A stretch of 64,000 nt of DNA from Escherichia coli (GTDB taxonomy: Bacteria; Pseudomonadota; Gammaproteobacteria; Enterobacterales; Enterobacteriaceae): the NCBI RefSeq assembly GCF_013315695.1, contig NZ_CP054353.1. One strand, given 5' to 3'. The position numbers and the translations under genes are program-made. Below, one piece after another: positions 33,186-33,612 of the stretch. Below the pieces are notes generated by a model. It was not told the DNA's origin. It saw only the letters and a list, made by a program, of their open reading frames with translations, and did no database searches. Every line of letters begins with the position of its first letter. Positions within the stretch are counted from its first letter, which is position 1.

Positions 33186-33252
33186 GTCTAGGTTCAAGAT
33201 TAGCCCCCGTGATGTTGTCAGGTGCATACCTGCAACGTGCGGGGGTTTTCTC
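33186..33252 (+). ncRNA. rdl: Rdl-type antisense RNA, copy 5 (predicted)
   Basis: Same element by repeat periodicity. Confidence 0.5.
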
Positions 33253-33612
33253 TCTCCAGCAACCAATGCCACCAGGGATTAAGCCCCCGCAACATTGCGC
33301 CTCACCGGAACCTTTCCGGCTTGCCGCTGATTCTACGATTGCTTTTTACCGTCAGCACCCGGCAATCTTCCTCATTGCGTGATGCATTCCAGCTTAATTT
33401 CTTTATTTGCAATAGTTGCAGTTCATATCCGGGCTGACTCCAGACTGGTAGTGAAATGCGCAATTTTGTAGAATTGCGCCTCCTCGCGACCTCCCCAGTG
33501 AATCTGTTGCCTCATTTTTTACATACTGCGTATTCGACTTCTCCACCTGTTGCGCAAGAGAAACTGGGTTTATTCATTTTTGCGAGGCCGACTTCTTTCT
33601 GGACAGGACTTT

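What the first reader, a model, noticed from the sequence alone, without database searches (positions are those of the whole stretch)
33186..33430. Distal end of the last LDR unit diverges from the other four
Units 1-4 share a near-identical segment downstream of the rdl terminator (CTGATTCTACGACTGTTTTTCTGTTCCGGAATCC…). Unit 5 switches after CTGATTCTACGA, at about 33347, to a related but clearly different sequence up to about 33430. This marks the original array boundary and implies that the ldr promoter/leader of copy 5 differs from copies 1-4, so the copies may not be equivalently expressed or regulated.
Basis: seen in the sequence. Interest (0 to 1): 0.3.

Follow-up and report, generated by a model that had tools for sequence, protein, structure and literature searches.

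The report
Edge of an ldr/rdl toxin array
The last of five tandem copies of a known E. coli toxin-antitoxin repeat keeps the ancestral sequence upstream of its toxin promoter, while the four inner copies carry an old, diverged version; this is an ordinary array-edge effect found in thousands of E. coli genomes.

Summary
The window holds E. coli bcsG, five tandem LDR-D units (483 bp each, each with ldr and rdl) and yhjV. Unit 5 matches unit 4 at 387 of 394 bases up to 33338. The 12-mer CTGATTCTACGA ends there, not at 33347. Identity then drops to 42 of 82 bases over 33339-33420, which is far above chance, and is random beyond about 33428. So the segment is a diverged homologous part of the unit, not foreign flank.

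Unit 5's version is the one next to yhjV in K-12's single LDR-D. It occurs once in 5409 of 5426 complete E. coli genomes. The inner-junction version occurs 1-4 times in 3304 genomes, and also in other Escherichia species.

The switch lies about 16 bp upstream of the inferred ldr transcription start. A hexamer TAGAAT (33335-33330, minus strand), followed after 10 nt by a 5' hairpin, is present in all 22 units compared from four genera. Homology to every other LDR lineage ends at 33336-33339.

I infer that the leader, the start site and the -10 element are shared by all five copies. Only the -35 and upstream region differs. Unequal expression is plausible but untested.

The system is already known, so interest is low.

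The parts
31013..33427 (-). Array of five LDR-D units (483 bp each) between bcsG and yhjV. The ldr genes are read on the minus strand.
   Evidence: Tandem Repeats Finder array; unit alignment; five Ldr ORFs; five rdlD matches.
33339..33427 (-). Diverged distal segment of unit 5. It is the spacer, -35 and upstream region of the ldr-5 promoter, in the ancestral K-12 type ('terminal' version).
   Evidence: It shares 42 of 82 positions with unit 4, with 0 of 20000 shuffles as high. The terminal-type segment is 97.2% identical to K-12 MG1655 (H76; sequence). It is found once per genome in 5409 of 5426 E. coli genomes.
33330..33335 (-). Inferred -10 hexamer TAGAAT of the ldr-5 promoter. The same hexamer sits at 31398-31403, 31881-31886, 32364-32369 and 32847-32852 in units 1-4.
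   Evidence: TAG[A/T]AT is present at a fixed 10 nt before the 5' hairpin in 22 units from Escherichia, Klebsiella, Salmonella and Lelliottia. The only variants seen are TAGTAT and TAAAAT. It is the top-scoring -10 in the position-weight-matrix scan, although not above shuffles.
32946..33322 (-). Predicted ldr-5 mRNA, about 375 nt: a 5' hairpin, a leader overlapped by rdl, the ldr ORF and an intrinsic terminator.
   Evidence: The 378-nt stretch 32946-33323 folds at -177 kcal/mol, z = -7.6, with a 5' hairpin after 3 free nucleotides and 5'-3' pairing. The terminator is at 32980-32953. The length agrees with my recollection of about 370 nt in Kawano et al. 2002, which is not held here.
33030..33137 (-). 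ldr copy 5, a 35-aa toxin ORF (MTLAELGMAFWHDLAAPVIAGILASMIVNWLNKRK).
   Evidence: ORF list; Pfam PF13940, 93 bits; 97% identical to K-12 LdrD.
33186..33251 (+). rdl copy 5, the antisense antitoxin RNA.
   Evidence: Rfam RF01813, 90.4 bits against a gathering score of 50, full length.
32856..32944 (-). Inner-junction version of the same segment in unit 4. Equivalent segments lie at 31407-31495, 31890-31978 and 32373-32461. Each abuts the terminator of the next unit.
   Evidence: The first 80 nt of these segments are 77-80 of 80 identical among units 1-4. This version occurs in 3304 of 5426 E. coli genomes, 1-4 places each. It is also present in two other Escherichia species representatives.
33384..33391 (-). 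Conserved motif TGGAATGC, 48 nt upstream of the hexamer. In unit 4 it lies at 32901-32908 and reads CTGAATGC.
   Evidence: The spacing is 48-49 nt in both Escherichia D versions, in the A/B/C family and in K. aerogenes. Its function is unknown.
29331..31010 (+). bcsG, the left flank of the array.
   Evidence: 559-aa ORF; annotation of matching genomes.
33614..34884 (+). yhjV, the right flank of the array.
   Evidence: Its start corresponds to the K-12 yhjV start; ORF list.

Best explanation
This is the yhjV-proximal edge of a copy-number-variable tandem array of the known LDR-D (ldrD/rdlD) type I toxin-antitoxin repeat of E. coli. Each unit is transcribed leftward, on the minus strand, from a promoter at its right end. 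The part from the terminator to the -10 hexamer TAGAAT is kept nearly identical in all units. I attribute this to purifying selection on a highly structured mRNA and its antisense partner, with homogenisation among neighbouring units. Sequence upstream of about -16 is weakly constrained in all LDR lineages. It exists in two old versions. The terminal version is always the last unit, next to yhjV, and is the only one present in single-copy strains such as K-12. The inner-junction version is fused to the terminator of the next unit and is multiplied when the array expands. All five ldr copies should therefore start at the same nucleotide and make the same leader, apart from a few single-base differences, but they are driven by different -35 and upstream DNA. 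Shown here: the anatomy, the homology, the distribution and the conservation. Inferred: the start site, promoter use, and any difference in expression.
For: The window carries five intact Ldr ORFs (PF13940, 83-93 bits). It also carries five full-length rdlD matches, five ldr terminators, and flanking bcsG and yhjV as in K-12. Identity falls sharply from 98.2% to 51% at 33338/33339, and the residual homology reaches about 33420. The terminal version occurs once per genome in 5409 of 5426 E. coli genomes. The inner version occurs 1-4 times in 3304 of 5426. Seven E. coli arrays fetched for inspection, of 2 to 5 units, all lie between bcsG and yhjV. Both versions are present in other Escherichia species representatives. 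Middle units are the most alike (6-8 differences), and unit 1 is closest to the first unit of Escherichia sp. E1V33 (10 differences). That pattern fits recent expansion in the middle of the array and older edges. BLAST homology of unit 5 to K. aerogenes, Salmonella, Lelliottia and the E. coli A/B/C-type LDRs ends at query positions 392-395, which is window 33336-33339. TAG[A/T]AT, then 10 nt, then a 5' hairpin is found in all 22 units from four genera, with nothing conserved upstream between genera. The natural variant TAAAAT keeps the critical T1, A2 and T6 of a -10 element. The predicted 378-nt mRNA is unusually stable (z = -7.6) and starts 3 nt before a hairpin.
Against: No mapped transcription start was available. 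Kawano et al. 2002 and the genome-wide start-site tables could not be read. The position-weight-matrix scan does not lift any candidate promoter above shuffled sequence: the best scores are 7.2-7.6 against 7.7 +/- 1.7. No good -35 hexamer exists in either version. Covariation support for the 5' hairpin is weak, with one compensatory pair and 42 of 500 shuffles as good. Inner units have a second candidate promoter, ATGCAA-17-TATTCT, which is invariant in 21 inner units. It could mean that the inner copies start elsewhere. The sharp boundary could also be a recombination breakpoint rather than a limit of selection.
Confidence: 0.75

Rival explanations
1. The ldr promoter lies wholly inside the divergent segment, for example around the conserved TGCAAC-NN-TTGCAA and GGAATGC motifs. 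Copy 5 and copies 1-4 would then have entirely different promoters and 5' leaders.
For: Inner units have ATGCAA-17-TATTCT, scoring 7.45, as good as the TAGAAT candidate. It is invariant in 21 inner units. A YGGAAKGC motif is held at a fixed 48-49 nt distance in several lineages, so something upstream is constrained. No start site has been mapped here.
Against: The terminal and K-12 version has no equivalent -10 at that position; it reads TTAAGC. Such a start would give an mRNA of about 440 nt, against the roughly 370 nt I recall for K-12 ldrD. Between genera, nothing upstream of TAGAAT is conserved, whereas TAGAAT and its spacing to the hairpin are.
Confidence: 0.15
2. The segment 33339-33430 is simply unique flanking DNA. 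The array ends at 33338, and the resemblance to the inner junction is chance.
For: Tandem Repeats Finder ends the array at 33347. BLAST homology to other LDR lineages also stops here.
Against: Ungapped identity is 42 of 82, and 0 of 20000 shuffles reach that. The motifs GGAATGC and TGCAAC-NN-TTGCAA sit at the same offsets in both versions. The K-12 A/B/C array shares this region among all three of its units.
Confidence: 0.03
3. The sharp boundary is a recombination or gene-conversion breakpoint. On this view the inner units were imported from, or converted by, a different LDR lineage, rather than the boundary being a limit of selective constraint.
For: The drop from 98% to 51% is very abrupt. 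The inner unit of Escherichia sp. E1V33 is itself mosaic: its -16 to -60 part is a third variant, while the part beyond is almost identical to E. coli's. Neighbouring units are more alike than distant ones, so conversion or unequal exchange is active.
Against: The same boundary, within about 3 bp, is where homology ends in every other lineage and genus. Constraint alone explains that. The two mechanisms are not exclusive.
Confidence: 0.2
4. The five-copy array, or its odd last unit, is an assembly artefact.
For: Tandem repeats of about 0.5 kb are hard to assemble from short reads.
Against: The same architecture is present in thousands of complete genomes. Five-unit arrays are annotated in NZ_OZ547117.1 and NZ_CP146670.1.
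Confidence: 0.01

Closest known systems
LDR-D (ldrD/rdlD) of E. coli K-12, between bcsG and yhjV
   Same: It has the same flanking genes. Its LdrD is 97% identical, and it has the same rdlD RNA family. Its distal promoter-upstream sequence is the same as unit 5's, 97.2% identical across the terminal-type segment.
   Different: K-12 has one unit and the window has five. The four inner units carry a version of the upstream region that K-12 lacks entirely.
Multi-copy ldrD/rdlD arrays at bcsG-yhjV, e.g. three pairs in BL21(DE3) (PMC5435950)
   Same: The locus, the kind of array and the copy-number polymorphism are the same.
   Different: The window has five units, the highest number seen among 5426 complete genomes, where the inner junction occurs at most 4 times per genome. 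I found no paper among those I could read that describes the two versions of the promoter-upstream region.
LDR-A/B/C array of K-12 (kdsA-chaA)
   Same: It is also a tandem array of ldr/rdl units whose last unit diverges at its distal end. It has the same -10 position (TAGTAT) and a 5' hairpin.
   Different: The period is 535 bp, and its Ldr is 56% identical. Its terminal unit stays homologous to the others for about 125 nt beyond the hexamer, so all three copies share the upstream region.
hok/sok type I toxin-antitoxin
   Same: Both have a long structured toxin mRNA with 5'-3' pairing. In both, the antisense RNA lies opposite the leader rather than the toxin ORF, and a leader ORF has been proposed (PMC4147584, PMC8167048).
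   Different: The toxin family is unrelated. The mechanism of Rdl action has not been established experimentally, according to those reviews.

Membership tests
Ldr/Rdl type I toxin-antitoxin (LDR-D) | A 35-aa hydrophobic Ldr toxin ORF | tested here: met
   The three distinct Ldr peptide sequences among the five 35-aa ORFs were scanned and match Pfam PF13940 at 83-93 bits, against a cut-off of 27. They are 91-97% identical to K-12 LdrD.
Ldr/Rdl type I toxin-antitoxin (LDR-D) | A cis-encoded antisense Rdl RNA of about 66 nt | tested here: met
   Five full-length matches to Rfam RF01813, at 88-90 bits against a gathering score of 50.
Ldr/Rdl type I toxin-antitoxin (LDR-D) | Rdl lies opposite the ldr 5' leader, not the ORF | tested here: met
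   In unit 5, rdl is at 33186-33251 (+) and the ldr ORF at 33030-33137 (-). The arrangement is the same in all units.
Ldr/Rdl type I toxin-antitoxin (LDR-D) | Chromosomal position between bcsG and yhjV | tested here: met
Ldr/Rdl type I toxin-antitoxin (LDR-D) | Toxicity of Ldr and its repression by Rdl | not testable with these tools
   This needs expression experiments. It is known for K-12 LdrD from the literature (PMC4147584).
Sigma-70 promoter at TAGAAT (the ldr promoter shared by all five units) | A -10 hexamer conserved in sequence and position | tested here: met
   TAG[A/T]AT is present in 22 units of four genera, 10 nt before the 5' hairpin. The variant TAAAAT occurs in 4 other E. coli strains.
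Sigma-70 promoter at TAGAAT (the ldr promoter shared by all five units) | A recognisable -35 hexamer at 16-18 bp, with an overall score above background | tested here: inconclusive
   The terminal version reads GTGCTG-17-TAGAAT (score 7.6) and the inner version ATTCCG-17-TAGAAT (7.2). The shuffled best score is 7.7 +/- 1.7. The consensus scan found no minus-strand promoter.
Sigma-70 promoter at TAGAAT (the ldr promoter shared by all five units) | An experimentally mapped transcription start | not testable with these tools
   Kawano et al. 2002 and the start-site tables are not held.
Tandem array with homogenised middle and older edges | Middle units more alike than edge units, and edge units orthologous across strains or species | tested here: met
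   Units 2-4 differ at 6-8 positions. Unit 1 is closest to the first unit of Escherichia sp. E1V33 (10 differences). The terminal end is orthologous to K-12's.

The most novel reading that the evidence does not exclude
Inner and terminal ldr copies may be under different transcriptional control. In the terminal version the 48 bp just upstream of the -10 element are well conserved across Escherichia (6 variable sites, pi 0.037). In inner units the same stretch is highly variable (27 sites, pi 0.130). Further upstream, inner units instead carry an invariant stretch containing a candidate second promoter, ATGCAA-17-TATTCT, preceded by an A-tract next to the neighbouring terminator. If this candidate is real, expanding the array adds toxin genes with a different promoter, and possibly a longer leader, than the ancestral copy. 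A conserved YGGAAKGC element about 61-68 bp upstream of the start would then be an undescribed control site of ldr genes.
Probability: 0.15. Interest if true: 0.35.

Novelty: already known. Interest (0 to 1): 0.15.

Why it matters
It matters little beyond annotation. The finding shows that the five ldr copies here are not exact regulatory duplicates. Results for K-12's single ldrD promoter apply directly only to the last copy. Copy-specific single-base differences in the first 20 nt of the mRNA would allow expression of each copy to be told apart in RNA-seq data. The work also gives a well-supported position for the ldr -10 element and start site, based on four genera.

Tried and rejected
I tried to obtain the mapped ldrD start site and failed. 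Kawano 2002 (Mol Microbiol and DNA Res), Kawano 2012, Fozo 2008 and Thomason 2015 are not held. The supplements of Conway 2014, the BL21 transcriptome paper and T1TAdb are not held. The Cappable-seq start-site file is truncated before 3.7 Mb. The Reg-Seq paper lists ldrD and rdlD as targets but gives no data for them. A text search for '370' together with ldrD gave nothing usable.

Consensus and position-weight-matrix promoter scans did not separate any candidate from shuffled sequence.

A permissive Rfam scan of 33250-33700 found only a chance snoRNA match at E = 0.32, so no known RNA lies in the divergent segment.

I considered reading TGGAAT-N8-GC as a sigma-54 promoter. The GG-N10-GC spacing fits only the terminal, Klebsiella and Salmonella sequences. 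The match to the consensus is weak, at 7 of 11 positions by my own count, and a literature search linked neither yhjV nor ldrD to RpoN. I dropped the idea.

The exact-match scan of species representative genomes returned only 6 loci, because the 24-mer was too strict. More distant homologues came instead from chromosome fragments mislabelled as plasmids.

Full report
WHAT IS THERE. The window around the finding is the E. coli bcsG-yhjV interval. bcsG ends at 31010 and yhjV starts at 33614. Between them lie five head-to-tail LDR-D units of 483 bp (Tandem Repeats Finder: 31013-33347, 4.8 copies, 97% matches). Each unit carries three things:
- on the minus strand, a 35-aa ldr ORF; the three distinct peptide sequences match Pfam PF13940 at 83-93 bits;
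- an intrinsic terminator at the unit's left end;
- on the plus strand, a full-length rdlD antisense RNA (Rfam RF01813, 88-90 bits).
Because ldr is read leftward, the sequence 'downstream of the rdl terminator' on the plus strand is the ldr 5' leader, followed by the ldr promoter.

CHECK OF THE OBSERVATION. CTGATTCTACGA of unit 5 ends at 33338, and the first mismatch is at 33339. Unit 4 and unit 5 differ at 7 of 394 positions up to 33338. Over 33339-33420 they share 42 of 82 positions without gaps; shuffles give 22.6 +/- 3.9, and 0 of 20000 reach 42. Beyond 33428 they share 8 of 38, which is random. The last 82-89 bp of unit 5 are therefore a diverged but homologous copy of the inner-unit sequence, not unrelated flank. 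The unit's real edge is at about 33420-33427.

WHERE THE TWO VERSIONS OCCUR. K-12 has a single LDR-D, and its distal end is the unit 5 version. A 106-bp probe across the unit 5 version hits 5409 of 5426 complete E. coli genomes, once each (5410 places; K-12 MG1655 at 97.2%). The equivalent probe across an inner junction hits 3304 genomes, in 1 to 4 places each. So 61% of genomes carry arrays of 2-5 units, and five units is the maximum seen. Seven E. coli arrays fetched for inspection (2, 3, 3, 4, 4, 5 and 5 units) all lie between bcsG and yhjV. In each, the inner version sits at every junction and the terminal version at the end. Both versions are also present in two other Escherichia species representatives, and E. 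whittamii has a single unit with the terminal version. Three ldrD/rdlD pairs in BL21(DE3) are already in the literature (PMC5435950). The dimorphism is therefore old and species-wide, not a peculiarity of this window.

WHERE THE PROMOTER IS. I could not read the paper that mapped the ldrD start, so I used comparison instead. I aligned 22 units in mRNA sense: the two E. coli D versions, K-12 A/B/C, other Escherichia species, and chromosome fragments of Klebsiella aerogenes, Salmonella and Lelliottia filed as plasmids. All 22 show the same three elements in a row:
- a hexamer TAGAAT (TAGTAT in the A/B/C family);
- then 10 nt ending in AAG;
- then a short GC-rich hairpin whose sequence changes between lineages while staying paired.
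Nothing immediately upstream of the hexamer is conserved between genera.

In four other E. coli strains the terminal unit reads TAAAAT. All variants keep T1, A2, A5 and T6, which is how a sigma-70 -10 element behaves (established knowledge of -10 elements). A start 7-8 nt downstream falls at about 33322 in unit 5. It would give an mRNA of about 375 nt to the terminator. I remember 'approximately 370 nucleotides' from the abstract of Kawano et al. 2002, but that recollection is unverified here.

The predicted RNA folds far better than shuffles (-177 kcal/mol, z = -7.6). It begins 3 nt before the hairpin and pairs its 5' region with the region just before the terminator. Covariation support for the hairpin alone is weak.

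Position-weight-matrix scoring ranks TAGAAT-based promoters first or second in every unit, but none beats shuffled sequence, and neither version has a good -35 hexamer. I hold the start-site assignment at roughly 0.7 confidence.

WHAT THE SWITCH MEANS. With the start at about 33322, the switch at 33339 is at position -16. The leader, the start and the -10 element are common to all five copies. The spacer, the -35 region and everything further upstream differ.

The same point is where BLAST homology of unit 5 to every other LDR lineage stops: query positions 392-395, which is window 33336-33339, for K. aerogenes, Salmonella, Lelliottia and the E. coli A/B/C type. The simplest reading is that 33338 marks the limit of strong constraint, which covers the transcribed, structured, antisense-regulated RNA and its -10 element. 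Upstream of it, two paralogous versions have drifted apart since an old duplication.

Homogenisation also plays a part. Units 2-4 differ from one another at only 6-8 positions and unit 5 from unit 4 at 7, whereas unit 5 differs from K-12 at 13. Unit 1 is closest to the first unit of another species. Unequal exchange between units can never replace the outermost end, so the terminal version persists in every genome, including those collapsed to one copy.

DO THE COPIES DIFFER IN EXPRESSION? This is not testable here. Two observations keep the question open.

First, conservation differs between the versions. Among 21 inner and 11 terminal units, the 48 bp just upstream of the hexamer have 27 variable sites (pi 0.130) in inner units but 6 (pi 0.037) in terminal units. 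The next 46 bp are equally conserved in both, with 9 and 10 variable sites. This comparison is not corrected for phylogeny or for paralogy.

Second, inner units contain ATGCAA-17-TATTCT about 63 bp upstream of the inferred start. It is invariant in all 21 inner units and absent from the terminal version. Part of this conservation may only reflect the adjacent terminator and homogenisation among units.

VERDICT. The feature is real and its description is accurate, but it is the ordinary edge of a known, annotated toxin-antitoxin repeat array. The inference about the leader is not supported. The inference about the promoter holds only for the part upstream of the -10 element.

Noticed in passing
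window 33384-33391 (unit 5); 32901-32908 (unit 4) and equivalents in units 1-3; also L002, L014: On the ldr strand, a motif YGGAAKGC sits exactly 48-49 nt upstream of the -10 hexamer. This holds in both E. coli D versions, the K-12 A/B/C family and K. aerogenes, although the intervening 48 nt are unrelated between lineages. Units 3 and 4 read CTGAATGC. Its function is unknown.
   Followed up: partly
window 32910-32938 (unit 4); 31461-31489 and 31944-31972 (units 1 and 2); equivalent in unit 3: Inner units have a candidate extra promoter, ATGCAA-17-TATTCT, preceded by an A-tract next to the neighbouring terminator. It is invariant in 21 inner units from 3 Escherichia species and absent from the terminal version.
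   Followed up: partly
window 32185-32213 and 32668-32696, compared with 33151-33179: The rdl promoter -10 element is TATTAT in units 3 and 4 but TATTCT in units 1, 2 and 5. The first bases of Rdl also differ by unit: GTTAAG in unit 1, GTTTGG in units 2-4 and GTCTAG in unit 5, the last as in K-12. Antitoxin output and the 5' tail of Rdl may therefore differ between copies.
   Followed up: no
L016-L019 (terminal units of four other E. coli strains): The terminal unit's hexamer is TAAAAT in these strains. The window, K-12 and all inner units have TAGAAT.
   Followed up: partly
window 31097-31204: Ldr copy 1 carries L26 and S30 (…ASLIVNSLNKRK), and copy 2 carries L26. Copies 3-5 are identical to one another. 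The tryptophan replaced in copy 1 (W30S) is the residue described as the signature of the Fst/Ldr superfamily (PMC2887945).
   Followed up: no
window 33030-33272 and 32547-32822 (minus strand): The ldr reading frame stays open upstream through the leader, giving mechanical ORFs of 80-91 aa from GTG. No stop codon separates the leader from ldr in this frame. This bears on the proposed leader ORF ldrX (PMC8167048).
   Followed up: no
L014 (K. aerogenes LR134124.1, 657700-660200): K. aerogenes has a two-unit LDR array directly after its bcsG homologue, with dppF rather than yhjV on the other side. Its two units share the upstream region as far as the GGAATGC motif.
   Followed up: partly
L008 (NZ_JABWSY010000055.1, 503 bp): A 503-bp contig filed under Bacillus sp. 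EB106-08-02-XG196 is nearly identical to an E. coli LDR-D inner junction. It is almost certainly contamination of that assembly. Several 'plasmid' records in PLSDB that carry LDRs are chromosome fragments.
   Followed up: no
window 31013-33427: Five LDR-D units is the largest array seen among 5426 complete E. coli genomes, where the inner junction occurs at most 4 times per genome.
   Followed up: partly
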